Source: Candidatus Bathyarchaeia archaeon
GTDB taxonomy: Archaea > Thermoproteota > Bathyarchaeia > Bathyarchaeales > Bathycorpusculaceae
NCBI GenBank assembly: GCA_049512935.1
Contig: JBEKWR010000015.1
Location: forward strand, 1-42,974
Length of the DNA stretch: 42,974 nt
Reading direction: 5' to 3'
Each line of letters starts with the position of its first letter. The first letter of the stretch is position 1. Both the position numbers and the translations under genes were made by a program. The notes under the pieces are model-generated. The model was not told the origin of the DNA and did no database searches. It saw only the letters and a program-made list of their open reading frames with translations. This document shows, in pieces, positions 73-23,015 of the stretch.

Positions 73-141
73 TCTTTTAAGCTGTAGTCGACAAGTAGAA
101 AGTGCCGAGCGTCCTCTAATGTTTAATGGATTTGAACAGTA

Positions 142-1592: not shown

Positions 1593-2102
1593 ATGGTTTA
1601 CAACCGCAGGCGAGGTACTGCTATAGTCGAGTTTCCCGAGGGCATTTTAGTTGTTAGTCAAGGCAGTGAAACTTTTATGCTTCCAGGTGGTGGAGCAAAC
1701 AAAGGTGAAAGCCGAAAAAGTGCGGCAATGCGAGAACTTCAGGAAGAAACAGGTCTAAAGCCAGTAGAGTCTATATTATTGTTTCCTCATGAAGGCCGAC
1801 TCCATAAAACTTATAATGGTAAAGGGCATTTCCGAGATTACCACAAGGTCTTTTTGATTACGGTTAATGGCACTCCAAAGCCTCAAGGAGAAGTCAAACA
1901 TATAGCTTTCTTCAAAAATGGTTCAGATCTAAAGTTGTCATACTCTACGAGGGAAATAATTGAAAGGTTCTTAGCTATGAAAGGTGCGGGGCTTATACCC
2001 TTGGTGTGTGATCATTGTGGAGGGATTGATTTTCATCCCTCAACAAAAATCCCTAATGCACTCGAATGTGACCATTGTGGAAAAAATTTTACAAAAAGCT
2101 GA
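1593..2102 (+). CDS. NUDIX hydrolase with C-terminal zinc ribbon
   Basis: Nudix box GGGANKGESRKSAAMRELQEETGL; C-terminal CDHCG...CDHCG. Confidence 0.88.
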   Translation: MVYNRRRGTAIVEFPEGILVVSQGSETFMLPGGGANKGESRKSAAMRELQEETGLKPVESILLFPHEGRLHKTYNGKGHFRDYHKVFLITVNGTPKPQGEVKHIAFFKNGSDLKLSYSTREIIERFLAMKGAGLIPLVCDHCGGIDFHPSTKIPNALECDHCGKNFTKS

Positions 2103-2179
2103 ATTAGAATAAGCCTCGCATCGCAAGTTTTCCTATGGTAAAAAGTCTTAAATCTGCATCGCGCAGAAATAGCCTAAAC

Positions 2180-2569
2180 ATGGCAGATAAGGAAAATAAC
2201 GATGTAACTAAGAGATTAGATGAAAGAGAATTTCAGTTAGAAATGATGAAAGTTCAAATCTGCGCCGACTATGTTCATGCAACATTCACAACATTTTCGT
2301 CTTTTTTCTTGGTTCTTCTTGCTGGCGGTATTGTATTAGCATTGACAATCCGTTATTCAACTATTCCTTTTGCTGACATTGTGTCCATATCTCTGTTTGT
2401 TATATTTTTGGTTATGTCTATTAGCGGATTGATTTTGGTCGTGCAAAATTACGATAAGGGCTTTAAAGAAATCTCAAAAATGATGGAATCGGTAAAAAAA
2501 GGAAAAGAGTTACCACCATTAAATGAGATAGAACTTCTGAAAAGTAACCTAACAAAATTAAGAAAATAG
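2180..2569 (+). CDS. Hypothetical two-TM membrane protein
   Basis: Track ORF 2135-2569; ATG 2180 (MADKENND) is a more plausible start; two hydrophobic segments flanked by charged helices. Confidence 0.6.
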   Translation: MADKENNDVTKRLDEREFQLEMMKVQICADYVHATFTTFSSFFLVLLAGGIVLALTIRYSTIPFADIVSISLFVIFLVMSISGLILVVQNYDKGFKEISKMMESVKKGKELPPLNEIELLKSNLTKLRK

Positions 2570-2630
2570 TCAAAAGCTGAGAGACGCAAAAACTAAAAAG
2601 GTACATAGGTTAAAGTAGAATCGAGTCGAA

Positions 2631-2840
2631 ATGAACAAAGCAATACTCACTGGTCTGGGAATATTGCTATTATTGATAGGTTTAATTATAGCTTACTTTG
2701 CTGGAAGGGAATTAATAACCAATATAACTGTAACAAACATGTTTTCTCATGTCTACAGTTACTTGATAGAGGCTGCTATTGCGATTGCTTTTATGGTCGC
2801 TGGTGGACTCTTGGTTTATTTCGGAGTCAACAAATCTTAA
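2631..2840 (+). CDS. Small two-TM membrane protein (69 aa)
   Basis: Two clear hydrophobic helices; fills the gap between co-oriented genes. Confidence 0.65.
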   Translation: MNKAILTGLGILLLLIGLIIAYFAGRELITNITVTNMFSHVYSYLIEAAIAIAFMVAGGLLVYFGVNKS

Positions 2841-2891
2841 ATCTATACCCAAAGTGAAAACCAAGTAAAGAGCAGAATAGGCGCATATGGA

Positions 2892-3821
2892 ATGCCACAA
2901 TTTAAGAGAAAGGTAAATTGGCTCGAGGTTTTTTATTCCATTTTTGACATAAGATTATACAATAGATTTATGATAGCCAGTCTTTTTTTCTTGGCTTTTG
3001 GCTTTACTATTCCCTCTTTCATATTTTACATTTTGGCAACTAGAACTTCTATTGGGTGGTTGCCCTTTGCTATGTACATTTTTGTTTTTTTGTCAGCGAT
3101 AATATCTTCAGCAATATTCAGCAAAAATTTGTCTTTTTCTAAAAAACCACATGAATTCCAAGCTCTCAACAATTGGATTAGCTACTTTTTCTTAGTATCA
3201 AGCTGCCTTGCGTTTACATTCACTTTTATTGTGCTCTATCAGAAAAACGCGTTAGGGATACTTCAATTCAGTTTGGTATATGCCGTTTCTACTCTTACGC
3301 TAATCATTTCAATAATTGAAATATCAGTAGCTAGTCAAAGATATTCAGTCAGAAGAAACTTGGGCTTAACACAGGAAGCCCTCAATAAGCAAATGAAAAT
3401 ATGGAAAGAAAGTTTGGTTGATTTTCCAAATCACCAAGAACTAATAAGTAGTGTTGACGATTGCCGTTACGTTATCACCTTATTCGATAGAGGTTCATTC
3501 AATCTTGCGGTTCTATGGTTATGCAATACAATGGAACAAACTATAGATGCAGCCACTAAAGGAATTATCTCTGAAAATATCCAACGAAGAGACGTTTTTA
3601 GAAAAGAAGGAAAACCTAAGGCATACAGCACTCAACTAGAAACTTTTGGCTTTAAAATTAACAAGAGCAACGAAATTTCTATTGGAACACTATGGCATGA
3701 AATTAGAGTTAATGTTGCTCATCACAATTTTTCGCCTGATTTTAAGCAAACTTGTGGTGCAATAAACATTCTCCTTGCCTTCGTAACAGAGATGCCTGGA
3801 ATATTGCAAGCTTGGCGATGA
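2892..3821 (+). CDS. Four-TM membrane protein with putative C-terminal HEPN domain
   Basis: About four hydrophobic helices in the N-terminal half; helical C-terminal half with LAVLWLCNTMEQTI and an R-x4-H motif (IRVNVAHH). Confidence 0.6.
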   Translation: MPQFKRKVNWLEVFYSIFDIRLYNRFMIASLFFLAFGFTIPSFIFYILATRTSIGWLPFAMYIFVFLSAIISSAIFSKNLSFSKKPHEFQALNNWISYFFLVSSCLAFTFTFIVLYQKNALGILQFSLVYAVSTLTLIISIIEISVASQRYSVRRNLGLTQEALNKQMKIWKESLVDFPNHQELISSVDDCRYVITLFDRGSFNLAVLWLCNTMEQTIDAATKGIISENIQRRDVFRKEGKPKAYSTQLETFGFKINKSNEISIGTLWHEIRVNVAHHNFSPDFKQTCGAINILLAFVTEMPGILQAWR

Positions 3822-3985
3822 AAACTTTTTAGCACTATTCTAAGTTGAGTGCAATTAGTAAAGCAAGGTTTTTTATTCATCTGAATCCCAAATCTATATT
3901 TTCGGGTTTTTATTCCGATGCTATTTATAACTTGGCAAATTAATAGTTGGAGGTCAATATTTTCGAGACCTATGAAGGCACGATA

Positions 3986-4654
3986 ATGACTGACACTCAT
4001 GCGGTAACAATCTTGCGAATACTAAAAGGCGCCCTAGCGATGCCGAGGCTGGTTAAGCCAAAAGTTGACCCGTTCGAAACCTTGATTGTAACGATTATTT
4101 CACAGAACACCGCTGACACCAACACTGAGCGAGCCTTCGAAGCCCTGTCGAAGCAGTTCGAAATAACCCCTTCAGCGCTGGCTAATGCTGAAACAGAAAG
4201 AATTGAAGCTTGCCTTCACGTTGCAGGCTTATACCAAGCAAAATCCAAAGCAATACAGGCAACCTCAAAAATCATTATTGAAAAATTCGGTGGCTCTCTT
4301 GCGCCTGTTTTGTCTTTGCCTTTGGACGAGGCGAGAAAAACGCTTATGGAGTTGCCTGGTGTTGGACCGAAAACAGCCGATGTTGTCTTGCTCTTCTCAG
4401 CAAACCAGCCCACCATCCCCGTGGATACGCACGTGAACCGCGTGTCTAAACGGCTTGGCTTGGCACCCGCAAACGGCGATTACGAGGCTGTTCGCCTCAG
4501 CCTTCAGTCGTTTTTCGAGCCGAAGGATTACCTCGCGGTTCATCTGCTTCTGATTGCTCACGGTAGAAAAACCTGCAAGGCACAGCGCCCACGCTGCCAC
4601 GAATGCCCAGTTTACGATTACTGCCCGTCAAACTGTTTGGGGGATAAGGTTTGA
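3986..4654 (+). CDS. nth: Endonuclease III (HhH-GPD DNA glycosylase/AP lyase, 4Fe-4S)
   Basis: DPFETLIVTIISQNT, HhH LPGVGPKTADVV, PVDTHVNRV, and Fe-S motif CKAQRPRCHECPVYDYC; start placed at ATG 3986. Confidence 0.93.
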   Translation: MTDTHAVTILRILKGALAMPRLVKPKVDPFETLIVTIISQNTADTNTERAFEALSKQFEITPSALANAETERIEACLHVAGLYQAKSKAIQATSKIIIEKFGGSLAPVLSLPLDEARKTLMELPGVGPKTADVVLLFSANQPTIPVDTHVNRVSKRLGLAPANGDYEAVRLSLQSFFEPKDYLAVHLLLIAHGRKTCKAQRPRCHECPVYDYCPSNCLGDKV

Positions 4655-8364: not shown

Positions 8365-9063
8365 ATGGCTACAATCAGCACAGGCTGCGTATGCATCGAC
8401 AGCAAAATCGGGGGAGGCATCTCGCCCGAGAGCGTTACCTTAGTCTATGGTGAACCAGAAACTGGAAAAACAACGCTTGCCATGCAATGCGCCGTCAGCT
8501 GTGCGGTTCTAAACTTCAAGGTTTTGTTTGTCGACTGCGATAACACTTTCTCAACGAAGAGGCTTTCTCAACTTTCAGGTGACAAGTTTGACCAGGTGGC
8601 TACGCAGATTATTTTGATTAAGCCTAAAGATTTCCGTGAGCAAACCGTGCTTGTAGATCACATTCAAGATTACACGGAAAAGAATTTTGGGTTAATAGTC
8701 GTCGACACGTTAACGTCCCTGTACGGGGCAGAAGTCTCCCAATACTCGGGTAAAGCCTTCAGCGTAAACCGCGAGTTAAACAGGCAATTAGCCATTTTAG
8801 CTCAAACCGCAAAGATCCGGAAAATTCCAGTTATAATAACAAGTCAGGTCAGAAGCGTTTTTGACAACCCGAATGTCAGTGTTGCTCCAGTCGCTAACCG
8901 AGTCTTGAAATTTTGGGCGGACACGATAATAGCTTTGAAGCCGACGGATTATCCTCAAATCCTAAAAGCGGTTGTGGAGAAAACACGGGAAAATTCTCAA
9001 GAAGTTAACTGTTATGTACAAATAGTCGAATCTGGAATACAAGATACTAAATTCCAAGAATAA
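8365..9063 (+). CDS. radB: RadB-like RecA/RadA paralogue
   Basis: ISTGCVCIDSKIGGGI, Walker A GEPETGKTT, Walker B IVVDTLT, VIITSQV; lacks the RadA N-terminal HhH domain; ATG at 8365. Confidence 0.72.
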   Translation: MATISTGCVCIDSKIGGGISPESVTLVYGEPETGKTTLAMQCAVSCAVLNFKVLFVDCDNTFSTKRLSQLSGDKFDQVATQIILIKPKDFREQTVLVDHIQDYTEKNFGLIVVDTLTSLYGAEVSQYSGKAFSVNRELNRQLAILAQTAKIRKIPVIITSQVRSVFDNPNVSVAPVANRVLKFWADTIIALKPTDYPQILKAVVEKTRENSQEVNCYVQIVESGIQDTKFQE

Positions 9064-9572
9064 TGACGGTTGAACACATGGACATAGCCCTACTGGTAGT
9101 TGACGCGTTAAAGTTTATTTTCCCAGCCTACTGCGCAAACGCCACGCCCGTGCTCGCTGGCGGAGGAGCCAAAATGGATTTTGGAAGAAACTTTTTCGAT
9201 GGCAAACGAATTTTCGGAAACAACAAGACTTTCAGAGGCTTCTTTTTCGGCTTAGCCATAGGCATGCTGGTTGGGTTCATGGAAGTTGTCGCTTTTCATT
9301 TTCCCGCTCTGTTCCTCCTCTTGATTCCTTTAGGGGCGCTTTTAGGCGATTTGGCAGGGGCATTTCTTAAGAGGCGAGTGGGGATTGCGCCTGGAGGTTT
9401 ACTGCCTATCGTTGACCAAGTGGACTTTGTGATTGGGGCAATCGTGTTCTCGATTCCTTTAGCCATCGTGAGCTGGCAACTGGCAGTTACGGTTCTGCTG
9501 ATTACGCCGCCTATCCACCTTTTCACAAATTTTGTCGCTTACAAGTTGAAGCTGAAAAAAAACCCATGGTAG
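9063..9572 (+). CDS. carS: CDP-archaeol synthase (DUF46)
   Basis: PAYCANATPV, DGKRIFGNNKTFRG, GDLAGAFLKRRVGI, PIVDQVDF, KLKLKKNPW. Confidence 0.93.
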   Translation: MTVEHMDIALLVVDALKFIFPAYCANATPVLAGGGAKMDFGRNFFDGKRIFGNNKTFRGFFFGLAIGMLVGFMEVVAFHFPALFLLLIPLGALLGDLAGAFLKRRVGIAPGGLLPIVDQVDFVIGAIVFSIPLAIVSWQLAVTVLLITPPIHLFTNFVAYKLKLKKNPW

Positions 9573-9695: not shown

Positions 9696-10121
9696 TTAGG
9701 CTCCGCCTGAGTTTTTGAAAGCGATTGAGCCTTCCAAGAATATGTATGACAGAAACAGAAACGTCACGCCTATAATGAGCAGCATGTAAGCTTGCCTCGG
9801 TTTGTAGGCGCTCTTGGTGCTTTGGTAAATCGCGAGAAGACCGACGAAGCCGAAAGCGTACAGTATGCACGCGATGATGGTGTCCGAAACGAACTGTCCA
9901 CTGATGCTCGGATAAAGGAAGTAAATTGTGGAGGTGCCTAAATAGGCTGGAAGGGGATGCGTGATTAGAGTGTATAAGCCGCCGCCGAAAAGGAACACGG
10001 TGTAACCGATTCCAAGGATGGTGAGTATAAGCGTCGTATGGGGGGTTGCTTGGATTCTTCGAAACCATCGACTCAGCCCAAAGGACAGGTCTGAAGACCG
10101 CTTCTTTATTTTATCTGACAT
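9696..10121 (-). CDS. OSTC/DC2-like (OST3/OST6 family) three-TM oligosaccharyltransferase accessory subunit homologue
   Basis: Three TM helices; FLFGGGLYTLITHP and FLYPSISGQFVSD match, from memory, the eukaryotic DC2 pattern FLITGGIIYDVIVEP ... FLAYRVNGQYIME; similar length (141 aa). Confidence 0.7.
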   Translation of the reverse strand: MSDKIKKRSSDLSFGLSRWFRRIQATPHTTLILTILGIGYTVFLFGGGLYTLITHPLPAYLGTSTIYFLYPSISGQFVSDTIIACILYAFGFVGLLAIYQSTKSAYKPRQAYMLLIIGVTFLFLSYIFLEGSIAFKNSGGA

Positions 10122-10335
10122 TTCCGTTCCCTTCCTTGATTAAGTGCTTTACCACATCTTTAGCCCATTCTCCAGTTAATGAATTTTTCTGAATCTCAAC
10201 CAAATACTCCATCCAAACTACCTCAGATGCCCTCTTCCATACGTCAAATTTCTCCAAAACGTTCTGGTAGGCCTTCAAATGCAACGCGCAAAAATCGTTC
10301 TCCTCCGCTTCCCTGCCGCAAATTTTACATTTCAA
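10111..10335 (-). CDS. Small zinc-binding protein (CxxC...CxxH)
   Basis: MKCKICGREAEENDFCALH; overlaps the topA stop and the start of the next gene, so probably co-transcribed. Confidence 0.75.
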   Translation of the reverse strand: MKCKICGREAEENDFCALHLKAYQNVLEKFDVWKRASEVVWMEYLVEIQKNSLTGEWAKDVVKHLIKEGNGNVR

Positions 10336-12409
10336 CGGTTTTGTTCGCTCCTTTCGAAGGACAATTAGGGTTCAAGCATAGTTTCCAAGGCTGCTTCCTC
10401 TTCAGCCAAACGCTTACCACCGGGCACCCACAGCTTCTGCAGGCGCTCTTCAACGGCTTTATTTCGCCTCTCTGGGGCAACGGAAAAGTCAGGTTGCATT
10501 TCCCTTCGAAATAGTTTGTGCAGCCGACAAAACGTTTGCCAGAGGTTTTGGACCGCAAAATAACCAGTTTCCCTTCATGGCATTTTGGGCACACACCGAG
10601 TGTTCTTTGGTCAACCCACGCGTTTTTCAAAGCTTGACTCAACCGTTGACCTATGACCTGCTCTTTTGCCTTAAGCTCAGAAATAACGGGCTTTAGAACC
10701 GAAACGGCGTTCTGCAGCACGGCTTCCTTTGTTTCTATGCCCTGTTGGACTTCATCCATTTCCCGCTCAAGACTTCTGGTTAATTCAGGCAAAACAACCG
10801 TTGGACAGCAACTTGACAGTATTTCAGTGACTTCAAAGCCAAGCTCAGAAACGCCGAAAGCATCAGTTCCAAAGAGGTATTTGCGGTCGAGGAGCGTCTG
10901 TATAGTCGCCGCCCTCGTGGCCTTCGTGCCTATGTTTTCTTGCTCCATTTTCAAAAGCAAACTGCGCGGATTATAACGGGAAGGCGGCTTAGTAAAATCG
11001 TCCTTAAGAACCACCCGTTTGACGGCCACTTTTTGTCCCACGGTTACCGGCGGCAAAAAGTCGTCTTTCACTTGATGGTAGGGCTTGTAAAGTCCAAGCC
11101 ACCCTTCACTCAAGGTTCGCGCACCGTTCAAGCTGAAACGGTTCCCGTTAAGGCTCAGCGTCACTTTCACGGCTTGCCGTCGGGCGGGTTCGCCGAAAAC
11201 AGCCATGAACCGGCGCACGACAAGGTCGAAAATGTTTTTTTCAGGAACGCCGAGAGGTTTTTGAGGCAGGTTACCAGTCGGGTAAATTGCCGGGTGCGCC
11301 GAATCAACTTTTCCGCCCTCGCTAGGCTTCAGAATTGGTTTTGACAGCAGCTCAGACGCCTGCTCTGCGTAAACCTGCACCTTAGCCAGCTTTCTCAGTA
11401 TGGTTTTGTAGCCGATCGTCGGCAAAAGTTTTTGGCTGCTTGTCCGCGGGTAAGAAATCAAGGCGTCTAAGTACAGGCGTTGAGCTACGCTTGAGGTGCG
11501 CATAGGCGTGTACCTGAAGATTCGGTACGCTTCACTCTGTAAAGCGCCCAAGTCGAAAGGGAACGGCGGGTTCAAAGCAAACTCCTCCACCGCCACAGCT
11601 TCCACCACTCCTTCTTTGGCTTTGCAAGCTGCCATGACCTGAGTTGCTTCCTGCTTTGTCTGAAGGATCTTTTCGTATTCAGCCACGCACGCCACGCCGG
11701 AAATGTCAATTTTAGCTGTTATGGTCCAGTAGGGCGTGGGCACGAAGCTTCTCACGGCTTTTTCTCGCTCCTCCAGAAACTTGAGGGTTGGACCCTGCAC
11801 GCGTCCAGTGCTGATGGTAGCGTACCGTCCGCCAGCGCCTTGTGCAGCCGACGTTAATGCTCTTGAGAGGTTTATGCCGTAGAGCCAATCTACTTCGTGC
11901 CTAGTCAAACCCGCTTGAACCAAGGAAAAATCCAAGTGAGACAACAGGTGATCGTAGGATTCTTGCAGTTCCTCTTTTGTGAGCGTGGAGTACTTCATGC
12001 GTTTGGCAGTTTGCTCCTTGCCGCCGCAGGCAAATTTGAGTATGCAGTAGCCTATGATGCTGCCTTCAACGTCGAAGTCGCAGGCGTCAACGAACACATC
12101 AGCGTCCTCCGCCAACTTAGAAATCACTTCCAACCAAACACGAATCCTCGACGCTTTCCTTTCAGCCACGTACCTTGGAACCCACCGATAACTGAAAACT
12201 GGATAATCCCGCTTCCCTTTCTTCTCCTCGGCAAGCGTGTACAAGTGCCCAAGAGCTGGAACAATAACCACGTCTCCGTTTCGGCAAACCTGATAGTATG
12301 GAACCCCGTGGGCAACGGTTTTTTTCACGTTTCCACCCAAATCCAAAGCAGCAGCTATTCTGCTGGCAGCGTCAGGTTTTTCAGTTATGATTAAAGTGTA
12401 CTTTCCCAA
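10325..12409 (-). CDS. topA: DNA topoisomerase type IA with C-terminal zinc ribbons
   Basis: TOPRIM IITEKP and ACDFDVEG, STGRVQGPTL, catalytic ISYPRT, AHPAIYPT, GTKATR, C4 ribbons CPKC/CRSC. Confidence 0.95.
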   Translation of the reverse strand: MGKYTLIITEKPDAASRIAAALDLGGNVKKTVAHGVPYYQVCRNGDVVIVPALGHLYTLAEEKKGKRDYPVFSYRWVPRYVAERKASRIRVWLEVISKLAEDADVFVDACDFDVEGSIIGYCILKFACGGKEQTAKRMKYSTLTKEELQESYDHLLSHLDFSLVQAGLTRHEVDWLYGINLSRALTSAAQGAGGRYATISTGRVQGPTLKFLEEREKAVRSFVPTPYWTITAKIDISGVACVAEYEKILQTKQEATQVMAACKAKEGVVEAVAVEEFALNPPFPFDLGALQSEAYRIFRYTPMRTSSVAQRLYLDALISYPRTSSQKLLPTIGYKTILRKLAKVQVYAEQASELLSKPILKPSEGGKVDSAHPAIYPTGNLPQKPLGVPEKNIFDLVVRRFMAVFGEPARRQAVKVTLSLNGNRFSLNGARTLSEGWLGLYKPYHQVKDDFLPPVTVGQKVAVKRVVLKDDFTKPPSRYNPRSLLLKMEQENIGTKATRAATIQTLLDRKYLFGTDAFGVSELGFEVTEILSSCCPTVVLPELTRSLEREMDEVQQGIETKEAVLQNAVSVLKPVISELKAKEQVIGQRLSQALKNAWVDQRTLGVCPKCHEGKLVILRSKTSGKRFVGCTNYFEGKCNLTFPLPQRGEIKPLKSACRSCGCPVVSVWLKRKQPWKLCLNPNCPSKGANKTVEM

Positions 12410-12557
12410 AGACTCTTAACCCACTGCTTCAACGTCACAAAACAATCACTCTTGAAATAAAGGTTTGCAGTACCACAGCGCCAAACCCGAACAGGGAAGA
12501 GCTAGTTTTAGCAACCAATAAATACGCCATGACCATGTTACTACTCGGAGAATGGGG

Positions 12558-12728
12558 ATGCCGCAAAGGGTTATTTGCCATGGTTGCAATTACGTCTTGT
12601 ACGAAGGATCTGAGCTTAAACCGCCTGACGAGATTATTTCTCAGAACGGCGGAAAATGCCCCAAGTGCAGTCGGAAACTTTCATTGTTGCCTATTGAGGT
12701 TGAAGTTAAACCACTAAGCAGACACTGA
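12558..12728 (+). CDS. Small zinc-ribbon protein, 56 aa (MPQRVICHGCNYVLYEGSELKPPDEIISQNGGKCPKCSRKLSLLPIEVEVKPLSRH)
   Basis: Read by hand (below the track's apparent length cut-off); ATG 12558 with GGAG 7 nt upstream, two CxxC pairs, TGA 12726-12728. Confidence 0.8.
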   Translation: MPQRVICHGCNYVLYEGSELKPPDEIISQNGGKCPKCSRKLSLLPIEVEVKPLSRH

Positions 12729-13082
12729 AAAACGCGGAAAAGAAACTGAACCGTCGCCTGCGGTTGAAACATCATTAATGCCAAACAAAAAAGCCGCACT
12801 TTTCCGAAAAGAAGACTGAAAACGGCATCTGCGCGTTAATTGCCCTTGGTTGTTGCGCCAATTTTTTGCTGCTTAAACGACAGCTTATGGACGCGTGGTT
12901 AAGAAGCAGCGGCATAACCTTGCCATTTGTTTAACTGGAGCCCATGGCACTAACCAGCCTTCCTTCGCAGATGGCTTCGGCTCATTTTGGAAAGCCATAA
13001 ATAAACGTCCTATGTGTATAAATTGAGAATTAACGCAAATAGGCAATCGCGAAATTAATGAAATGATGAAGGATGGCTTAAC

Positions 13083-15395
13083 GTGGGGGAAGGAATTAAA
13101 GACAGACTCAGTAAAAGGCTAGAACCTTTCAGCAGATTGCGGCTCGAAGTAAGTCACGGCACAATAATAGCGTATTCAGCTTTGGCTCTTATACTTTTTA
13201 TCGCGTTCGTTGTACGCATTCTGCCGTTGCGATGGGAAAACCTCGCAGCTGGAACAACCACGCTGAACGAGTTTGACCCCTACTACCAGCTTACCGTGAC
13301 ACAGTACATGGTAAATCACGGTTTGCTCTCACCCTACTTTCCAACACACTGGATTAACATGCAATTATGGTACCCACACGGGCTTGACATGTCCACAGCC
13401 CTGCCCTCGATACCCATAACAGGAGCGGCAATCTACGACGTTATCCGAGCTTTTGGCGCAAACGTCGACATAACCACATTGTGCGCGTTGATCCCACCCG
13501 TTGTAGGTGTAATTACAGTTTTCATTATGTACTTGTTAGGCAAAGACATCGGAGGAAGAACAGTTGGTTTGCTCTCTGCACTGTTCATTTCTTTGGCGCC
13601 GTCAATCATCGAAAGAACCAGCCTCGGATTCTACGACACGGAAGTCCCAGGCACGCTCGGGCTGATACTGTTTATCTTCCTGTTCCTAAGATCTATTGAC
13701 AACCGAAGATCCCTGCGCACATCCGTCTTTTACTCCATAGGCGCGGCAGCCACCTTAGCTTACTTTATTGCAGGGTGGGGAGGAGCGTACTACATGATTG
13801 ACGCCACGGTCCTGTTTATTTTCGTGCTGCTCGCGATGAGAAGGTACAATCAACGCCTGCTAATTAGTTACACAGTGACCTTCGGGTTAGGACTGATGAT
13901 CGCGACAAAGGTTCCCTACATGGGACTCGTCTACCTGACTTCAGGCGCAGTGCTCCCAGTTGCCGCTGGGTTTGTCCTGCTTCTAATAGCAGAGCTCTTA
14001 CGCAACAACATATCTTTGAAGTCCAAGCTGACCATGGCGATAGGCGCACTCGTCATAATTGTCGGGGGCTTCGCAGGGCTAGTCGTAAGTGGACTCATCA
14101 GTGGCAGCGGCATCACAGGAAAATTCGAAACAGTGCTTGACCCCTTCATCAGGGCTTCATCGCCCATCATTAACTCGGTGGCTGAACAGCAAATTACGGC
14201 TTGGGGAAACATCTACATTGAACTAGGCATCGGCTTACTATTCTTCCTGATCGGCATTTACTTCATACTTCAGAACCCAAGCACCAAATACATCTTCCTA
14301 ATGGTCTTCGCTGTAACATCTCTCTTCTTCGCAGCCTCCATGATCCGTCTACTGGCAATATTTGATCCAGCCTTCGCCATCATCGCGGGAATAGGCATAG
14401 TGAGCCTGCTCAAACCCTTTTACAATCTGCTGAAAGAGGCACCTCGCACCCTCGCCAAATCGAAACGAAGACTGGCACGCGTCAGCAAAGAATACAGCGG
14501 AATCGCAATCTTCCTGATATTCCTCATCCTCGTAATGAACCTCGCATTCTCGCCGCAAACTGGCGGAATTCCAAGACCCATCGAGTCTGCTTATGTGCCA
14601 ACCGCGATCAGCGGGTCAAGCCTTCCGTTAGGAGGCGCATCCCTCACTCAACCAGTCAGCGCATGGCTAGACGCGTTAACTTGGATTCAGAGCAATATTC
14701 CTTCAAACAACGTGGTGGTCGCTTGGTGGGACTACGGCGATTGGCTAAGCGACATTGGGAACGTCACCACGCTCTGCGACAACACGACTTACAACGCCAC
14801 ACAAATAGGCAACGTGGGCTTCATAATGATGGGCAACGAAAACCAGTCGATGCACATGCTGAACTTCTTCGACAACTACAACAACCCTGGACGCGTCACC
14901 TACATACTCGTATTCACCACAATCGCGGTTCAGTCATCATCTAACGGCGCCACATACGCATACCCTGCTGGATACGGAGACGAAGGCAAATTCGTTTGGA
15001 TGGCAAGAATTTCAGGAACCTACGAGCAATACTACTTAAACAACGGCTTCATGGGCACAGGCGCAGGCTTAACTGAATGGAAGGATGAAACCTCCTTCGG
15101 CAATTACAGCTCAACAACCGGGCAGTGGCAGTGGAATTCGCAAGGACAGAACTGCACCATAGCCGAACTAATGTACGACGCCGCTTACCAGTACTGCCAA
15201 GCTGCGAGCTCATCATCAGGAACCACCATCACGCCAACCTGGACAGCCTCGATGCCAAAGTACTTTACACCAGTGGAGATCTTCGGCGTAAATACACCGC
15301 CGACCCAATACGGCGGACTGGTGCCATTAGTTGCCCTGTACAAAATCGACTACTCGGCTTACTACGCCGCAACTGGCGCAACAGGCACAGGCTAA
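13083..15395 (+). CDS. aglB: Oligosaccharyltransferase catalytic subunit AglB/STT3
   Basis: EFDPYY, RTSLGFYDTE, SVAEQQ, WWDYG, LCDNTTYN, GDEGKFVWMARI; many TM helices plus a C-terminal soluble domain. Confidence 0.95.
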   Translation: MGEGIKDRLSKRLEPFSRLRLEVSHGTIIAYSALALILFIAFVVRILPLRWENLAAGTTTLNEFDPYYQLTVTQYMVNHGLLSPYFPTHWINMQLWYPHGLDMSTALPSIPITGAAIYDVIRAFGANVDITTLCALIPPVVGVITVFIMYLLGKDIGGRTVGLLSALFISLAPSIIERTSLGFYDTEVPGTLGLILFIFLFLRSIDNRRSLRTSVFYSIGAAATLAYFIAGWGGAYYMIDATVLFIFVLLAMRRYNQRLLISYTVTFGLGLMIATKVPYMGLVYLTSGAVLPVAAGFVLLLIAELLRNNISLKSKLTMAIGALVIIVGGFAGLVVSGLISGSGITGKFETVLDPFIRASSPIINSVAEQQITAWGNIYIELGIGLLFFLIGIYFILQNPSTKYIFLMVFAVTSLFFAASMIRLLAIFDPAFAIIAGIGIVSLLKPFYNLLKEAPRTLAKSKRRLARVSKEYSGIAIFLIFLILVMNLAFSPQTGGIPRPIESAYVPTAISGSSLPLGGASLTQPVSAWLDALTWIQSNIPSNNVVVAWWDYGDWLSDIGNVTTLCDNTTYNATQIGNVGFIMMGNENQSMHMLNFFDNYNNPGRVTYILVFTTIAVQSSSNGATYAYPAGYGDEGKFVWMARISGTYEQYYLNNGFMGTGAGLTEWKDETSFGNYSSTTGQWQWNSQGQNCTIAELMYDAAYQYCQAASSSSGTTITPTWTASMPKYFTPVEIFGVNTPPTQYGGLVPLVALYKIDYSAYYAATGATGTG

Positions 15396-15401
15396 AAGCG
15401 C

Positions 15402-16295
15402 ATGACAACAAAAAGCCGCGCGGTGTTCCCAAAGGTTCCTGACCAACATAAACCTGGAAAACCACTGGTACCCAACGGCTTAGGCGTCGCCTACGTCCTG
15501 TTCACCACAGTCTACCTTTTTGTTCTTTACTTTTCAGGATTGATAAAGAACCCGTCCAACGTTTCAGCGCCCATCTCAGCGCCCTTGATCCTGGCGGCAT
15601 GCATTCTTTTCGGCGGCTTCATGGGTTTACTTGACGATTGGATGGATCTTAAATGGCGGTACAAGGCGTTCATGCCCCTGATCGCGGCTTTGCCCCTCAT
15701 TTACTACGCGAAAGAAATAGGGGCAAGAACAACCCTGTTCATACCTTACATCACGACGCTTCATCTGGGTCCAATTTACTTTTACGTGATCCTTCCAGTC
15801 ATCGTGATGATAGTTACAAACACGGTTAACATGCTCGGCGGGCTCAACGGGTTAGAAACAATATGCCCAGCCATCGTCATAATCGGATTAATGATCATCT
15901 CATCCTCTTACATCCTGATGGTCGGACCGATACTGTTCTGGCTGGTACTGGCGTACTTCAACTTCAGAGGAAAGATTTTCGTCGGCAACTCAGGCTCTTT
16001 CGCCATAGGAATGACCATAGCCGCGTTCGCGGTGATTTCAGACTTAAAAGCAAGCCTGTTCATCGCAATTCTGCCCTACATCTTCAACTCATCATTGATA
16101 CTGCTAACAGTTTTCTTCACGCGCCAAAAAGCCCAAGTTAACTTCGACGGCGACAAATTGTGCTCCGACCACAGAAGAAGCCTAATCACGTTGATAACTT
16201 TCCATCACCCGATGAGTGAAAAACAGGTCGTCAGGATAATCGCTTTGATAGTTGCGGTTTTCACCGCGTTAGCTGTCATTAGCCAACTGATATGA
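15402..16295 (+). CDS. aglH: UDP-GlcNAc:dolichyl-phosphate GlcNAc-1-phosphate transferase (GPT/AglH/ALG7, MraY superfamily)
   Basis: DQHKP..VPNGLG, GLLDDWMDLKWRYK, TNTVNMLGGLNGLE, KIFVGNSG; starts 6 nt after the aglB stop. Confidence 0.8.
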   Translation: MTTKSRAVFPKVPDQHKPGKPLVPNGLGVAYVLFTTVYLFVLYFSGLIKNPSNVSAPISAPLILAACILFGGFMGLLDDWMDLKWRYKAFMPLIAALPLIYYAKEIGARTTLFIPYITTLHLGPIYFYVILPVIVMIVTNTVNMLGGLNGLETICPAIVIIGLMIISSSYILMVGPILFWLVLAYFNFRGKIFVGNSGSFAIGMTIAAFAVISDLKASLFIAILPYIFNSSLILLTVFFTRQKAQVNFDGDKLCSDHRRSLITLITFHHPMSEKQVVRIIALIVAVFTALAVISQLI

Positions 16296-21229: not shown

Positions 21230-22021
21230 TTGATAAAAAAGAAATCTATTCACACTTACCTTTTTCTAACAATAATAGGACTGCTTCTAATCGCGCCAGT
21301 AGCACAAGTTTCAGCCCAGACGGAATGGAACCTACAGGTAACCAACTTGGGAGACACAACCGCCAACTACGCCTACAACCAACTCTTGGCGATGCCACAA
21401 ACCACCGTTTACGCCAACGAGCTTTGCTACGGCGGCTCCGTAGCCAGCGGCAACTGGGTCGGAGTCAGCCTTAGCTATCTACTTCAGCAAGCAGGACTAA
21501 CCCCAGCAGTCGCTTCGATTGATTTCCAAGCTCAAGACGGGTACGCAGTTATCCTCCCAGTTCAGGAGGCTATGCAGTCTGACGTGATCATTGCTTACGA
21601 ATTAAACGGGTCACCTTTACCTGAAACGCTACGTCTGGTGGTTCCTGAAGAAAACGGCAACATTTGGATAGCACTGATTACTTCAATAACAATGAGCACA
21701 AACGTAGTTCAATCAGCGTCTGGCGGTGGAGGAACAGAAGGCGCAATCCCTTCATCCAGCCCAACTGTGCAATCTTCAACTCCACCCGTACAGCAACCAT
21801 CAACAACGCCACAAAACCAGACCCAAACTGAAACAGGCGTACTTTCATCAAACACCACTCAACCCGAACAAAAAACAACTGCGCCTCAAACTCCCCTGAG
21901 TTCAAGTTTTCCATCCGTCGCTTTATACGCCATAGCAGTTGCCGCGGCTGCAGGGTTTGCGGCGGCAGGCTTTACAGCTTATAAGCGCAAGCGCGCAAAC
22001 CAAAGCGTCAGCCTGCCCTAG
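21230..22021 (+). CDS. Secreted, C-terminally membrane-anchored molybdopterin-dependent oxidoreductase (sulfite-oxidase/MsrP fold) domain protein, copy 1
   Basis: Signal peptide ending VSA-Q; ELCYGG, WVGVSLSYLLQQAG, AQDGY..LP, IAYELNGSPL, LRLVVP; S/T/P/Q linker; FPS + TM + KRKR. Confidence 0.8.
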   Translation: MIKKKSIHTYLFLTIIGLLLIAPVAQVSAQTEWNLQVTNLGDTTANYAYNQLLAMPQTTVYANELCYGGSVASGNWVGVSLSYLLQQAGLTPAVASIDFQAQDGYAVILPVQEAMQSDVIIAYELNGSPLPETLRLVVPEENGNIWIALITSITMSTNVVQSASGGGGTEGAIPSSSPTVQSSTPPVQQPSTTPQNQTQTETGVLSSNTTQPEQKTTAPQTPLSSSFPSVALYAIAVAAAAGFAAAGFTAYKRKRANQSVSLP

Positions 22022-22172
22022 GGGTTTAGAAAAGATGCGAAAAGAGGGCCAAGTCTCAAATTTCCTAATTTTTTAGCTACTTAGCTAAGCAGCCTGCTAA
22101 GTGAATGAGGTAAGTGCGGAGGCAGGTAAGTGCACCATTTCGATGGTGATTCTTTTGGTTTAGCTGGGAATG

Positions 22173-22196
22173 TTTAAAAGTATGACGCGCGTCATA
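22173..22196 (+). promoter_or_regulatory. TATA box TTTAAAAG followed directly by perfect 16-bp palindrome TATGACGCGCGTCATA
   Basis: Seen directly 21 nt upstream of the TTG at 22218; arms identical to those at 21192-21207. Confidence 0.72.
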
Positions 22197-22217
22197 AATA
22201 CTGTAGAGATGTGAGAT

Positions 22218-23015
22218 TTGACAGAAAAAAAAATTCTCCAAACCTTCCTTTTCCTAACACTATTCGGGTTGCTGCTGATAACCCCGATAGGAAAAGCGGC
22301 AGCTCAAACAGATAACAGCTTACAAGTAACCAACACAGAAAACGCGACCGCCAGCTACACCGACAATCAACTCTTAGCGATGCCACAAACCACCGTTTAC
22401 GACGATTGCTACTGCACAGGCGGTTCGATAACCAGCGTGGAGTGGGTCGGAGTAAGCCTCTACTATCTGCTTCAGCAAGCAGGACTGGATTCAACGGTCG
22501 CTTCTGTTGATTTTCAAGCTTCAGACGGAAACTCAGCAAGCCTTCCACTGCAGGAGGCCATACAGGCCAACGTGATTGTCGCCTACGAAGTAGACGGTTC
22601 ACCTCTATCTGGGCTACGCTTGGTGGTTCCTGGAGAAAACGAAAACGTTTGGTTAGCGCCTCTTACTTCAATAACCATGAGCACCACCGTAACTCAATCC
22701 GCAACTTACAGTTCAAAAACAGCGGTAGTTGTGCCGTCACCCCCTCCAATCGGGCAATCTTCAACCCAGCAAACGCCCGTTCAATCACAACCCACTGCCA
22801 CCCCACAAAACCAGAATAGCCCTGAACCAGCTGCATCTCCATCAAACGTCACCCAACCCGGACAGAAAGCAGCTGAGCCTAAAGTTTCCGCAGGAACAGG
22901 TTTTCCTTCCGCAGCGCTCTACGTGTTGGCAGCTGTAGCAGCAGTTGCATTGGCGGCGGCAGGCTACACGGCTTATAAGCGCAAGAGCAAGACAAAAACC
23001 ACACAGTCAACCTGA
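22218..23015 (+). CDS. Secreted, C-terminally membrane-anchored molybdopterin-dependent oxidoreductase-fold protein, copy 2 (tandem paralogue)
   Basis: Shares NQLLAMPQTTVY, WVGVSL.YLLQQAGL, DFQA.DG, LRLVVP.EN.N.W and FPS-TM-AYKRK with copy 1; has DCYCTGG. Confidence 0.8.
   Translation: MTEKKILQTFLFLTLFGLLLITPIGKAAAQTDNSLQVTNTENATASYTDNQLLAMPQTTVYDDCYCTGGSITSVEWVGVSLYYLLQQAGLDSTVASVDFQASDGNSASLPLQEAIQANVIVAYEVDGSPLSGLRLVVPGENENVWLAPLTSITMSTTVTQSATYSSKTAVVVPSPPPIGQSSTQQTPVQSQPTATPQNQNSPEPAASPSNVTQPGQKAAEPKVSAGTGFPSAALYVLAAVAAVALAAAGYTAYKRKSKTKTTQST

What the first reader, a model, noticed from the sequence alone, without database searches (positions are those of the whole stretch)
9696..16295. 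Eukaryote-like N-glycosylation locus: DC2/OSTC-like subunit near an STT3-like AglB and GPT
Seen: 9696-10121 encodes a 141-aa three-TM protein with GGGLYTLITHP, FLYPSISGQFVSD and MLLIIGVTFLFLSY, collinear with human DC2/OSTC as I recall it (GGIIYDVIVEP, FLAYRVNGQYIME, LLLFIGFVCVLLSF). About 3 kb away lie aglB and a GPT gene, and carS is adjacent. The AglB has eukaryote-style motifs: EFDPYY, SVAEQQ, WWDYG, NVTTLCDNTTYN and DEGKFVWMARI. Known: characterised archaeal AglBs act as single subunits, while DC2 bridges STT3A to the Sec61 translocon. OST3/6-family homologues have been noted in Asgard-related genomics, so the family itself may not be new. Inference: this organism may build a multi-subunit, translocon-docked OST.
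Basis: partly seen in the sequence, partly recalled or inferred. Interest (0 to 1): 0.82.

Follow-up and report, generated by a model that had tools for sequence, protein, structure and literature searches.

The report
DC2-like glycosylation subunit in Bathyarchaeia
A small three-helix membrane protein in this Bathyarchaeia genome is a real relative of the eukaryotic DC2/OST3/6 helper subunits of the protein-glycosylating enzyme, and the genome also encodes a ribophorin I-like protein, so part of the multi-subunit enzyme appears to be older than eukaryotes and their closest archaeal relatives.

Summary
ORF 9696-10121(-) encodes a 141-aa, three-TM protein carrying the quoted motifs. An STT3A-like AglB and a DPAGT1-like GPT start 3 kb away, and carS is adjacent.

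Homology to DC2/OST3/6 is solid. An archaeal family profile hits human OSTC at E 7e-17 and MAGT1 at 2e-6. The AlphaFold model (pLDDT 91) matches only DC2, MAGT1, Ost6 and Ost3 chains above Z 8, out of 48,161 chains compared.

The protein is DC2-shaped: no thioredoxin domain, N-terminus inside, C-terminus outside. Relatives occur in every sampled Bathyarchaeia genome, in about half of the other Thermoproteota sampled, and in Asgard archaea.

In several other Thermoproteota families the gene sits directly beside aglB on the opposite strand. The genome also encodes a ribophorin I/OST1-like protein that a direct Pfam search missed. OST48, DAD1, OST5, KCP2 and TRAP-gamma were not found.

Binding to AglB or to SecY was not tested, because the complex-prediction job never ran.

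The family is already described for Asgard archaea, and one paper mentions it for TACK. This is a new member of a known kind, of moderate interest.

The parts
9696..10121 (-). DC2/OSTC-like member of the OST3/OST6 family (called DC2L here). It is 141 aa: a basic N-terminal helix, then three TM helices with the N-terminus inside and the C-terminus outside. It has no thioredoxin domain.
   Evidence: ORF and motifs. Pfam PF04756 gives E 8.5e-5 and 22.6 bits, under the 27-bit cut-off. Only OSTC chains are hit in the PDB by phmmer. Family profiles hit OSTC at E 7e-17 (A1) and 2.9e-9 (A4). The model has pLDDT 91.4. The top 10 Foldseek hits are all DC2/Ost3/Ost6/MAGT1 chains. VIA gives Z 13.0, 12.4, 10.7 and 9.1 for those four families, and the next hit is 6.8.
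10111..10335 (-). 74-aa zinc-ribbon ORF that matches the C-terminal end of archaeal topoisomerase I. It overlaps both TopA and DC2L by 11 nt. It is listed as operon context, not as a glycosylation part.
   Evidence: NF004438 positions 605-671 of 677, E 1.7e-13. It is found in 69 of 80 Bathyarchaeia loci.
10325..12409 (-). DNA topoisomerase IA, the first gene of the same-strand string TopA-Zn74-DC2L. It is context only.
   Evidence: Topoisom_bac E 1.3e-109 and Toprim. TopA lies on the same strand and ends less than 600 bp upstream of DC2L in 63 of 80 loci.
12410..13082 (.). 673-bp intergenic region from which the TopA-Zn74-DC2L string and aglB-GPT are transcribed in opposite directions.
   Evidence: ORF coordinates. 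The divergent orientation is seen in 42 of 43 Bathyarchaeia loci that hold aglB within 8 kb. No promoter was mapped.
13083..15395 (+). AglB, an STT3-type oligosaccharyltransferase and the catalytic subunit. It is the only clear STT3 gene in the genome.
   Evidence: Pfam STT3 E 4e-35 and STT3-PglB_core. It is the single strong STT3 match in the genome. Best solved relatives: STT3A 3e-67, yeast Stt3 1e-54, STT3B 1e-50. The motifs are confirmed.
15402..16295 (+). GPT (AglH/Alg7-type UDP-GlcNAc:dolichyl-phosphate GlcNAc-1-phosphate transferase), 7 nt downstream of aglB.
   Evidence: PF00953 E 6.5e-24. Human DPAGT1 5lev_A E 2.4e-14. It follows aglB in 40 of 80 loci, a count limited by the flank length.
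9063..9572 (+). CDP-archaeol synthase CarS, which converges on DC2L. It is a conserved neighbour listed as context.
   Evidence: PF01864 E 1.9e-42. NF003114 at 181 bits, over the cut-off. It lies next to DC2L in 79 of 80 loci.

Best explanation
The 141-aa protein is an archaeal member of the OST3/OST6/DC2 family with DC2 architecture: three TM helices, N-terminus in the cytoplasm, C-terminus outside, no thioredoxin domain. The most likely reading is that it is a non-catalytic subunit packed against the membrane domain of the STT3A-like AglB. A ribophorin I/OST1-like protein encoded elsewhere in the genome (G000:C1:151805-153640) would be a third subunit. AglB would then work as a small hetero-oligomeric oligosaccharyltransferase that transfers the lipid-linked glycan started by the neighbouring GPT. 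By analogy with human DC2 and ribophorin I, the small subunit may hold AglB next to SecYE-beta, and the four-helix cytoplasmic domain of the OST1-like protein may contact the ribosome. Glycosylation would then be coupled to translocation. Shown here: homology, fold, predicted topology, phyletic pattern and gene neighbourhood. Inferred: binding to AglB (my estimate about 0.6) and translocon docking (about 0.35).
For: Sequence evidence:
- phmmer of the protein against the PDB returns only two distinct sequences at E<=10, and both are OSTC.
- A profile of 104 relatives hits OSTC at 7e-17 and 1.2e-14, and TM2-4 of MAGT1 at 2.2e-6.
- A profile of 16 sequences, the window's own protein and 15 from other Thermoproteota genomes, gives 2.9e-9, 1.5e-8 and 7.3e-6.
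- 79 of 104 relatives match PF04756 at E<=0.01.

Fold evidence:
- The model has pLDDT 91.4.
- The ten best Foldseek matches are all DC2, Ost3, Ost6 or MAGT1 chains.
- In a Foldseek-independent scan of 48,161 chains, only those four families reach Z>=8.

Topology and conserved residues:
- There are 7 K/R before TM1, none in the 52-78 loop and 3 in the 100-113 loop. This matches the Ncyt-Clum three-TM topology shown for DC2 (PMC5674889, passages).
- G47, Q76, G94 and K136 are invariant, and Y50, P71 and E80 nearly so, in the 16-sequence alignment A4. G47, Q76, G94 and K136 align with identical residues of human OSTC; residue 80 is D in this protein and aligns with E in OSTC.

Partner and context:
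- AglB is STT3A-like.
- DC2L and aglB are immediate divergent neighbours in 9 of the 15 regions fetched from other Thermoproteota genomes, spanning 4 coded families.
- aglB lies within 8 kb in 43 of 57 Bathyarchaeia loci that have enough flank, and 42 of those 43 are divergent.

Phyletic pattern:
- DC2L is found in 224 of 401 sampled Thermoproteota genomes. That includes all 59 other genomes of the same class.
- The families that lack it (f15 1/56, f16 0/16, f24 0/23, f25 1/12, f29 0/5, f30 0/15) also lack the OST1-like protein entirely. Their AglB matches are weaker: E 1e-13 to 1e-68 in f16, f24, f25, f29 and f30, and 1e-33 to 1e-92 in f15, against 1e-108 or better in most DC2L-bearing families.

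OST1-like protein:
- Orthologues pass the Ribophorin_I cut-off.
- The profile hits human RPN1 at 2.2e-15 and the MK-D1 OST1 cytoplasmic domain at 1.4e-14.
- The model shows beta domains, one TM helix and a cytoplasmic four-helix bundle.
- The eight best Foldseek hits are all ribophorin I or Ost1 chains.
Against: - No physical or predicted interface was obtained.
- On its own, the protein scores below Pfam's gathering cut-off (22.6 against 27 bits).
- The adjacency to aglB sits inside a deeply conserved block that also holds RadB, CLP1, CarS, DUF460 and TopA. Neighbourhood may therefore reflect inherited gene order rather than shared function.
- In this genome DC2L appears to be co-transcribed with topoisomerase, not with aglB.
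- In 27 of the 47 non-Bathyarchaeia genomes that I could pair by hand from the printed lists, the two genes lie on different contigs. In 5 more they are far apart on one contig.
- The correlation of evolutionary distances between DC2L and AglB is the highest of 10 pairs (r 0.765, partial r 0.456). The lead is not significant: it is the top pair in 330 of 500 bootstraps, and the difference to the next pair runs from -0.073 to 0.098.
- KCP2, DC2's partner in OST-A, is not detected.
- AlphaFold may have learnt OST structures, so the fold match is not fully independent of the sequence match.
- From my own knowledge, not checked here: the archaeal AglBs characterised so far are active alone.
Confidence: 0.6

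Rival explanations
1. DC2L binds AglB but has nothing to do with the translocon. It would stabilise the enzyme or shape the lipid-linked-oligosaccharide and peptide entry site, as the TM2-4 bundle of yeast Ost3/Ost6 is thought to do, and glycosylation would occur after translocation. This differs from the best explanation only in its docking sub-claim.
For: The fold matches MAGT1 (Z 13.0), Ost6 (10.7) and Ost3 (9.1) as well as DC2 (12.4). In STT3B/yeast-type complexes these proteins are not translocon adaptors (PMC5674889, passages). No KCP2 or TRAP-gamma was found.
Against: The architecture is that of DC2: no thioredoxin domain and no extra first TM helix. Both sequence profiles prefer OSTC to MAGT1 (7e-17 against 2.2e-6; 2.9e-9 against 7.3e-6). 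AglB is closest to STT3A. The genome also has an OST1-like protein with the cytoplasmic helical domain, which binds ribosomes in human RPN1 and in MK-D1 OST1 (PMC11417166, section 7).
Confidence: 0.25
2. DC2L is a true homologue that works independently of AglB. It could be a small transporter or channel subunit (MAGT1 and TUSC3 were once proposed as Mg2+ transporters, and Pfam calls the family 'transporter family'), or a general membrane-protein biogenesis factor at SecYE-beta.
For: No interface has been shown. The gene belongs to a housekeeping synteny block and lies in a string with topoisomerase. In many genomes it is far from aglB.
Against: From my own knowledge: every solved member of the family is an OST subunit bound to STT3. 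The gene is an immediate divergent neighbour of aglB in four coded families. Its phyletic pattern follows the STT3-like AglB type and the OST1-like protein.
Confidence: 0.12
3. The resemblance is convergent: a generic three-helix membrane protein that matches OST3/6 only through hydrophobic composition.
For: The single-sequence Pfam score is below the cut-off, and weak hits to MerC, DUF6962 and Chromate_transp appear beside it. Helical bundles often give middling structural Z-scores (note).
Against: Profile E-values of 7e-17 and 2.9e-9 are specific to OSTC and MAGT1, and the next hits have E>=0.1. Polar and glycine positions shared with OSTC are conserved. A gap of Z 9-13 against 6.8 separates the family from all other chains.
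Confidence: 0.03

Closest known systems
Human/metazoan DC2 (OSTC), the OST-A-specific subunit that links STT3A to Sec61
   Same: Length class (141 aa against 149 aa). Three TM helices with the N-terminus in the cytoplasm and the C-terminus outside (PMC5674889 passages). No thioredoxin domain. Shared conserved positions: GG..Y in TM1, Q...E at the start of TM2 (D at the last position in this protein), G..G in TM2, G in TM3 and K in the C-terminal tail. Superposition at rmsd 2.0-2.7 A over 107-115 residues. The catalytic partner is STT3A-like.
   Different: Only 17-20% identity. It has a longer basic N-terminal helix. No KCP2 was detected. The membrane is the cell membrane, not the ER. Binding to AglB or SecY is not shown. 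The gene lies in a string with topoisomerase.
OST3/OST6/TUSC3/MAGT1 (Pfam PF04756), the oxidoreductase subunits of yeast OST and human OST-B
   Same: It is homologous to their C-terminal TM2-4 bundle. Pfam profile positions 180-291 of 294 are matched. The profile hits MAGT1 residues 214-327 at E 2.2e-6. VIA Z is 13.0 (MAGT1), 10.7 (Ost6) and 9.1 (Ost3).
   Different: It lacks the lumenal thioredoxin domain and the first TM helix. No fused form of 351-2000 aa was found with the family profile (weak evidence, and proteins of about 250-350 aa were not searched).
Asgard 'OST3/OST6 family protein' (for example Lokiarchaeota TXT65921.1; MK-D1 DSAG12_01196)
   Same: It is the same family. The Lokiarchaeota cluster P0255 is a direct phmmer hit of this protein, and a Jordarchaeales cluster is another. 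These too are short (128-183 aa) and have no thioredoxin domain. The Asgard proteins are treated in print as OST subunits. An AF2 model of the MK-D1 Sec61/OST/TRAP assembly has been superposed on the human translocon (PMC11417166, section 7).
   Different: This one is from Bathyarchaeia (Thermoproteota/TACK), where no TRAP-gamma, OST5, DAD1 or OST48 homologue was detected. Some of the unnamed relatives that branch with the Lokiarchaeota protein carry a longer basic N-terminal extension.
Single-subunit archaeal AglB and bacterial PglB
   Same: The catalytic subunit here is an AglB with the WWDYG motif and the STT3 fold family.
   Different: Solved archaeal AglBs match this AglB only in the short C-terminal core (E 2e-5 and 2e-4), against 3e-67 for STT3A. 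Here two candidate accessory subunits are encoded. That the characterised AglBs work alone is my recollection and was not checked here.

Membership tests
OST3/OST6/DC2 family (Pfam PF04756) | Score over the curated Pfam gathering cut-off | tested here: inconclusive
   22.6 bits and E 8.5e-5 against a cut-off of 27. The best E-value among relatives is 1.2e-12, and 79 of 104 match at E<=0.01. The model is 294 positions long and this protein can match only its last third.
OST3/OST6/DC2 family (Pfam PF04756) | Significant and specific sequence homology to bona fide members | tested here: met
   Profile A1 hits OSTC at 7e-17 and 1.2e-14 and MAGT1 at 2.2e-6, with the next hit at 0.95. Profile A4, built only from genome-derived sequences, gives 2.9e-9, 1.5e-8 and 7.3e-6, with the next hit at 0.1.
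OST3/OST6/DC2 family (Pfam PF04756) | Three-helix membrane bundle superposable on DC2 or on TM2-4 of Ost3/6 | tested here: met
   Model pLDDT 91.4. Foldseek ranks 1-10 are all family members, with TM-score by target of 0.51-0.82. VIA gives Z 9.1-13.0 for the four family representatives, and the next hit is 6.8.
DC2/OSTC subtype | Three TM helices, N-terminus cytoplasmic, C-terminus outside, no thioredoxin domain | tested here: met
   Hydropathy and charge distribution. Secondary structure. The protein is 141 aa with no other Pfam domain. The topology is predicted, not measured.
DC2/OSTC subtype | Stable subunit of an STT3-containing complex | not tested
   The one complex-prediction job (AglB alignment A3 plus DC2L alignment A1) was never accepted by the server. 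No biochemical data exist.
DC2/OSTC subtype | Mediates contact of OST with Sec61/SecY | not tested
   No computation was run, and experiments would be needed.
DC2/OSTC subtype | Occurs together with KCP2 | tested here: not met
   PF09775 gives no match at E<=1 in the genome, which is 93% complete. KCP2 is a partner rather than a defining feature, and small divergent proteins are easily missed.
STT3/AglB oligosaccharyltransferase | STT3 membrane domain plus a WWDYG-bearing core with the first-loop acidic motif and a DK-type motif | tested here: met
   PF02516 E 4e-35 and PF21436 over the cut-off. EFDPYY, SVAEQQ, WWDYG and DEGKFVWMARI are present. The protein aligns with STT3A over residues 26-646. 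The motif names are recalled.
Ribophorin I/OST1 (PF04597), gene outside the window at G000:C1:151805-153640 | Sequence match to the family | tested here: met
   The protein's own Pfam scan finds nothing. It is 36-48% identical to eight Bathyarchaeia proteins from genomes with Ribophorin_I matches, six of them over the cut-off. The profile of these hits human RPN1 at 2.2e-15, MK-D1 OST1 at 1.4e-14 and yeast Ost1 at 1.1e-3.
Ribophorin I/OST1 (PF04597), gene outside the window at G000:C1:151805-153640 | Architecture: extracytoplasmic beta-sandwich domains, one TM helix, cytoplasmic four-helix bundle | tested here: met
   Model pLDDT 79.8, with strands at 34-393, a helix at 397-424 and four helices at 476-612. 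Foldseek ranks 1-8 are all RPN1 or Ost1 chains (E 1e-24 to 2e-16), and the next hit is 3e-6.
GPT/Alg7/AglH (PF00953) | Glycos_transf_4 domain closest to the eukaryotic GlcNAc-1-P transferase | tested here: met
   PF00953 at 85 bits. All five PDB hits are human DPAGT1, E 2.4e-14 to 3.8e-13.

The most novel reading that the evidence does not exclude
The original form of the OST3/6 family was a DC2-like three-helix adaptor, already present with an STT3-type AglB and a ribophorin I-like, ribosome-contacting subunit in the common ancestor of Thermoproteota (TACK) and Asgard archaea. A translocon-docked, co-translocational, three-subunit OST would then predate Asgard archaea. Eukaryotic DC2 would keep the ancestral form, and Ost3/6/TUSC3/MAGT1 would be later fusions with a thioredoxin domain. 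Bathyarchaeia and cultured relatives such as Tardisphaera would offer a minimal natural version of the OST-A/Sec61 assembly for structural study.
Probability: 0.3. Interest if true: 0.7.

Novelty: new member of a known kind. Interest (0 to 1): 0.42.

Why it matters
Textbooks treat archaeal N-glycosylation as the work of a lone AglB, and treat the multi-subunit OST as a eukaryotic or at most Asgard feature. This window shows that an ordinary peat or wetland Bathyarchaeon carries an STT3A-like AglB, a DC2-shaped OST3/6 homologue and a ribophorin I homologue. The same trio is widespread in Thermoproteota. That pushes the origin of at least a three-part OST below the Asgard node. It also offers small and possibly simpler complexes in which to test how DC2-type and ribophorin-type subunits couple glycosylation to translocation. 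The family, and its presence in 'TACK', are already mentioned in print and in database names. The gain is therefore in detail and testability, not in discovering a new kind of system.

Tried and rejected
- Complex prediction of AglB (A3) with DC2L (A1). It gives no information in either direction.
- Direct Pfam searches of the genome for other subunits. Ribophorin_I gave nothing, which later proved a false negative. OST48_N, Ost5, DAD, KCP2, Ribophorin_II and TRAP-gamma gave none. For Ribophorin_II no control genome rang, so that result is uninformative. Ost4 gave only E 0.136 inside a 574-aa frame. Ost5 matched 1 of 61 class genomes, weakly and inside a 371-aa frame. The genome is 93% complete and small TM proteins are easily missed.
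- A second PF04756 hit in the genome (C11, profile positions 44-108) lies in the thioredoxin part of the model. The same search rang in 12 of 14 control genomes. I took it for an ordinary thioredoxin-fold protein and did not follow it.
- Search for longer fused forms with the family profile (351-2000 aa): none. This is weak evidence, and lengths of about 250-350 aa were not covered.
- Mirror-tree co-evolution: suggestive but not significant.
- Expression: one metatranscriptome run (X22) holds exact contigs on aglB (13065-13374, 14365-14502 and 14474-14639) and none on DC2L, TopA or GPT. These are contigs from a library that may contain DNA, so this shows neither transcription nor silence.
- The search for related loci with the broad alignment A1 failed because no stretch was conserved enough. 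It was repeated with the narrower A2.
- The search of earlier findings by sequence found nothing. By words it returned one note on a Thorarchaeal ribophorin I.
- Literature. A search for 'oligosaccharyltransferase' + 'Asgard' + 'DC2' found 0 papers. 'OSTC' + 'DC2' + 'archaea' found 4, none about archaeal homologues judging by titles and abstracts. 'OST3' + 'archaea' + 'Bathyarchaeota' found 7. In the two of these whose passages I read, OST3/6 is not ascribed to Bathyarchaeota.

Full report
**What is in the sequence**

The ORF at 9696-10121 on the minus strand starts with ATG and encodes 141 residues. Hydropathy gives three membrane segments at about 29-51, 77-100 and 111-134. There are seven Lys/Arg before the first segment, none in the 52-78 loop and three in the 100-113 loop. 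The positive-inside rule therefore puts the N-terminus in the cytoplasm and the C-terminus outside.

AglB (13083-15395, +, 770 aa) carries all five quoted motifs and matches Pfam STT3 at E 4e-35. The next gene (15402-16295) is a Glycos_transf_4 protein whose only PDB relatives are human DPAGT1 chains, E 2.4e-14. carS (9063-9572) converges on the small ORF.

Not everything between the small gene and aglB is glycosylation DNA. A topoisomerase IA gene (10325-12409) and a 74-aa zinc-ribbon ORF (10111-10335) precede the small gene on the same strand, each overlapping the next by 11 nt. The other 30-odd genes of the window are housekeeping.

**Is it a DC2/OST3/6 homologue?**

Alone, the protein scores 22.6 bits (E 8.5e-5) on Pfam OST3_OST6. 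That is under the 27-bit cut-off, and it matches only profile positions 180-291 of 294. Against all PDB sequences it finds only two distinct sequences at E<=10, and both are OSTC/DC2, at E 0.007.

An exhaustive phmmer search of 1.84 billion representatives gave 147 clusters at E<=0.001. I kept the 103 of these that are 120-200 aa long and aligned them with the query (A1). The A1 profile hits human OSTC at 7e-17 and 1.2e-14, and TM2-4 of MAGT1 at 2.2e-6. The next hit is at E 0.95. Of the 104 members, 79 match PF04756 at E<=0.01.

The representatives are unnamed, so I repeated the test with a profile of 16 sequences: the window's own protein and 15 translated from other Thermoproteota genomes (A4). 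It gave OSTC at 2.9e-9 and 1.5e-8 and MAGT1 at 7.3e-6.

The AlphaFold2 model is confident: pLDDT 91.4 and pTM 0.76. Its ten best Foldseek matches in the PDB are all DC2, yeast Ost3, Ost6 or MAGT1 chains (rmsd 2.0-2.5 A for DC2 in 8b6l, 8pn9 and 6s7o). After these, E jumps above 0.5. A Foldseek-independent alignment to 48,161 representative chains found four chains with Z>=8: MAGT1 13.0, OSTC 12.4, Ost6 10.7 and Ost3 9.1. The next chain scores 6.8.

Positions G47, Q76, G94 and K136 are invariant in the diverse set, and Y50, P71 and E80 nearly so. G47, Q76, G94 and K136 align with identical residues of human OSTC, and residue 80, which is D in this protein, aligns with E in OSTC.

The homology is therefore real. 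The architecture (three TM helices, Ncyt-Cout, no thioredoxin domain, about 140 aa) is that of DC2, whose three-TM Ncyt-Clum topology was shown experimentally (PMC5674889, passages seen). One caveat applies. AlphaFold may have seen early OST structures in training, so the fold match is not fully independent of the sequence match.

**Distribution**

The word-indexed search gave 1653 proteins at E<=0.001. In the GTDB species genomes, 201 stretches encode a relative. Of the best 80, 79 carry Bathyarchaeia, Bathyarchaeota or MCG titles, and one is labelled Limnocylindrales, probably a binning label.

In an even sample of 401 genomes of the window's phylum, 224 have a match. These include all 59 other genomes of the same class and 164 of 341 genomes from other classes. 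Whole coded families lack it: f15 1/56, f16 0/16, f24 0/23, f25 1/12, f29 0/5 and f30 0/15.

I looked up 30 clusters, and 6 carried an organism name. All were archaeal: Lokiarchaeota/Promethearchaeota (named 'OST3 / OST6 family protein'), Jordarchaeales, Tardisphaera miroshnichenkoae together with Thermoprotei, Bathyarchaeia twice, and 'archaeon'. The Atlas neighbours are Bathyarchaeota and Promethearchaeota clusters in which 16-31% of members carry PF04756. The longer relatives I inspected have basic N-terminal extensions, not thioredoxin domains. A search for fused forms of 351-2000 aa found none, which is weak evidence.

**Partners in this genome**

AglB is the only clear STT3 gene. Its best solved relatives are mammalian STT3A (3e-67 over residues 26-646), yeast Stt3 (1e-54) and STT3B (1e-50). 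Solved archaeal AglBs match only the short C-terminal core, at 2e-5 and 2e-4. The double sequon DNTTYNAT after WWDYG is the feature reported for TACK and Asgard AglBs (PMC8993221, passage).

A direct Pfam search for ribophorin I found nothing in the genome. The same family does, however, match 69 of the 401 phylum genomes, 59 of them over the cut-off. Using eight Bathyarchaeia orthologues from those genomes as tblastn queries, I found a 613-aa gene at G000:C1:151802-153640 that is 36-48% identical to them.

The profile of this set hits human ribophorin I at 2.2e-15 (including the TM helix and the cytoplasmic domain), the crystal structure of the MK-D1 OST1 cytoplasmic domain at 1.4e-14, and yeast Ost1 at 1.1e-3. 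The model (pLDDT 79.8) shows a signal or anchor helix, beta domains at 34-393, one TM helix at 397-424 and a cytoplasmic four-helix bundle at 476-612. Its eight best Foldseek hits are all ribophorin I or Ost1 chains, with E from 1e-24 to 2e-16, and the next hit is at 3e-6. Atlas clusters for it are already auto-named 'Ribophorin I family protein' in Bathyarchaeota.

With this profile, 159 of the 401 genomes have the protein, 50 of them among the 59 other genomes of the class. None of the families that lack DC2L has it: f15 0/56, f16 0/16, f24 0/23, f25 0/12, f29 0/5 and f30 0/15. OST48, DAD1, OST5, KCP2 and TRAP-gamma were not detected. OST4 gave only a chance-level hit, and the Ribophorin_II search was uninformative.

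**Gene neighbourhood**

Counts in the 80 Bathyarchaeia loci:

| Neighbour of DC2L | Loci |
|---|---|
| CarS | 79 |
| RadB | 78 |
| TopA | 71 |
| zinc-ribbon ORF | 69 |
| AglB | 46 |
| GPT | 40 |

The AglB and GPT counts are limited by the 8-kb flanks. Among the 57 loci with at least 7.9 kb on the relevant side, 43 hold aglB. In 42 of these it is divergent from the TopA-DC2L string, at a median of 4.0 kb.

Outside the class, I paired by hand the coordinates printed for 47 genomes:

| Position of DC2L relative to aglB | Genomes |
|---|---|
| Immediately adjacent | 9 |
| 1.3-2 kb apart | 4 |
| About 5 kb apart | 2 |
| Far apart on one contig | 5 |
| On different contigs | 27 |

I fetched the first 15 of these. 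ORF calling with hmmsearch and tblastn confirmed immediate divergent adjacency in nine genomes of four coded families (f23, f27, f28, f33). The gaps run from about 0 to 525 bp. In three others RadA lies between the two genes. In one an unassigned 573-aa ORF lies between them, and in one TopA plus the zinc-ribbon ORF.

RadB, and often CLP1, CarS and DUF460, flank DC2L in these distant genomes too. DC2L and aglB are therefore part of an old, slowly rearranging block. Adjacency supports a functional link but does not prove one.

The phyletic pattern points the same way. Families without DC2L have AglBs that match the Bathyarchaeia AglB profile less well: E 1e-13 to 1e-68 in f16, f24, f25, f29 and f30, and 1e-33 to 1e-92 in f15. 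Most DC2L-bearing families match at 1e-108 or better. This comparison is confounded by relatedness.

Pairwise-distance correlation across 39 genomes is highest for DC2L-AglB (r 0.765; partial r 0.456). That is the top of 10 pairs among five neighbouring proteins. Bootstrapping shows the lead is not significant: it is the top pair in 330 of 500 samples, and the difference interval runs from -0.073 to 0.098.

**How it most likely works**

I take the following as established knowledge of the eukaryotic enzymes; only the PMC5674889 passages below were checked here. DC2 and the TM2-4 bundle of Ost3/6 pack against the membrane domain of STT3. In OST-A, DC2 lies between STT3A and Sec61.

Passages of PMC5674889 add three points. 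DC2-/- cells keep peptide-level OST activity but lose the Sec61 association. The lumenal parts of DC2 are needed for assembly into the STT3A complex. The accessory subunits are unstable without their STT3.

Mapping this onto the archaeon, DC2L would bind AglB through its three helices and through the conserved outside loop and C-terminal tail. The OST1-like protein would add a second accessory subunit. Its cytoplasmic bundle is homologous to the domain shown to bind ribosomes in both human and MK-D1 OST1 (PMC11417166, section 7 read in full).

I rate subunit status at about 0.6 and translocon docking at about 0.35. The one decisive computation available, a controlled complex prediction, could not be run.

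**What is already known**

OST3/6 and ribophorin I homologues in Asgard archaea are attributed to the 2017 Asgard paper. I did not see that paper; it is cited in PMC8993221 and PMC10307638 (passages). PMC10307638 adds Ost2, Ost4, Ost5, Swp1 and Wbp1 for Asgard archaea. PMC11284389 names the MK-D1 Ost3/6 gene (passage).

[quoted passage not shown] It also models the MK-D1 Sec61/OST/TRAP assembly. An older survey found no prokaryotic homologues of the accessory subunits (PMC4973528, passage).

I found no paper that describes the archaeal proteins as DC2-like (0 papers for oligosaccharyltransferase + Asgard + DC2). Nor did I find one that reports their universality in Bathyarchaeia, their adjacency to aglB or their co-distribution with OST1. 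The supplements and figures of the papers above were not seen and may hold such data.

**Verdict**

The 'multi-subunit OST' inference is strengthened by the OST1-like gene and by the neighbourhood data, but it remains untested at the level of binding. The family is known, and its presence in TACK has been noted in print. This is a new member of a known kind, with useful added detail, and its interest is moderate.

Noticed in passing
window 10111-10335 and 10325-12409 (-); also L100:6558-8821: The last zinc ribbon of topoisomerase I is encoded as a separate 74-aa ORF in another frame. It overlaps the TopA stop by 11 nt (GTTGAAATGTAA) and the start of the next gene by 11 nt. The arrangement recurs in 69 of 80 Bathyarchaeia loci and in a genome of another class. 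It is either a conserved split gene or a programmed frameshift.
   Followed up: partly
G000:C1:151805-153640 (outside the window; L113:2303-4141): This is a ribophorin I/OST1-like gene of 613 aa that the direct Pfam search missed. It was recovered through orthologues, a profile-to-PDB search and a structure model. A parvulin-type PPIase gene lies about 700 bp downstream.
   Followed up: yes
L086-L094 (G081, G073, G309, G114, G074, G017, G033, G137, G025): In four coded families of other Thermoproteota classes, the DC2-like gene and aglB are immediate divergent neighbours, with RadB on the other side of the small gene. Three other genomes have RadA inserted between the two genes.
   Followed up: yes
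window 13065-13374: An exact contig from a metatranscriptome run begins 18 nt upstream of the GTG start of aglB. It could mark a short 5' leader, but one contig from a library that may hold DNA proves nothing.
   Followed up: no
window 1-4000: G+C drops to 0.35-0.40 here, against about 0.47-0.54 in the rest of the window. The stretch includes two ORFs with no Pfam match (2135-2569 and 2892-3821) and a protein that joins an AN1 zinc finger to a CAP/cysteine-rich secretory domain (142-1413).
   Followed up: no
window 21230-23015 and 26175-28720: There are two tandem pairs of paralogues: two molybdopterin-oxidoreductase-domain genes and two MoeA genes.
   Followed up: no
L055:2190-5321 and L057:2160-5288: Two Bathyarchaeia genomes have aglB reading frames of 1043-1044 aa, about 270 aa longer than the others by my ORF call. 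This is either an N-terminal extension or an over-extended start.
   Followed up: no
proteins P0221, P0232, P0202, P0212, P0236, P0255: Some relatives of the small protein carry lysine-rich N-terminal extensions of 40-200 aa with a recurring '..PW....LRKPKIK.P' stretch before TM1. The only named one among them is from Lokiarchaeota. This may be a cytoplasmic contact region.
   Followed up: no
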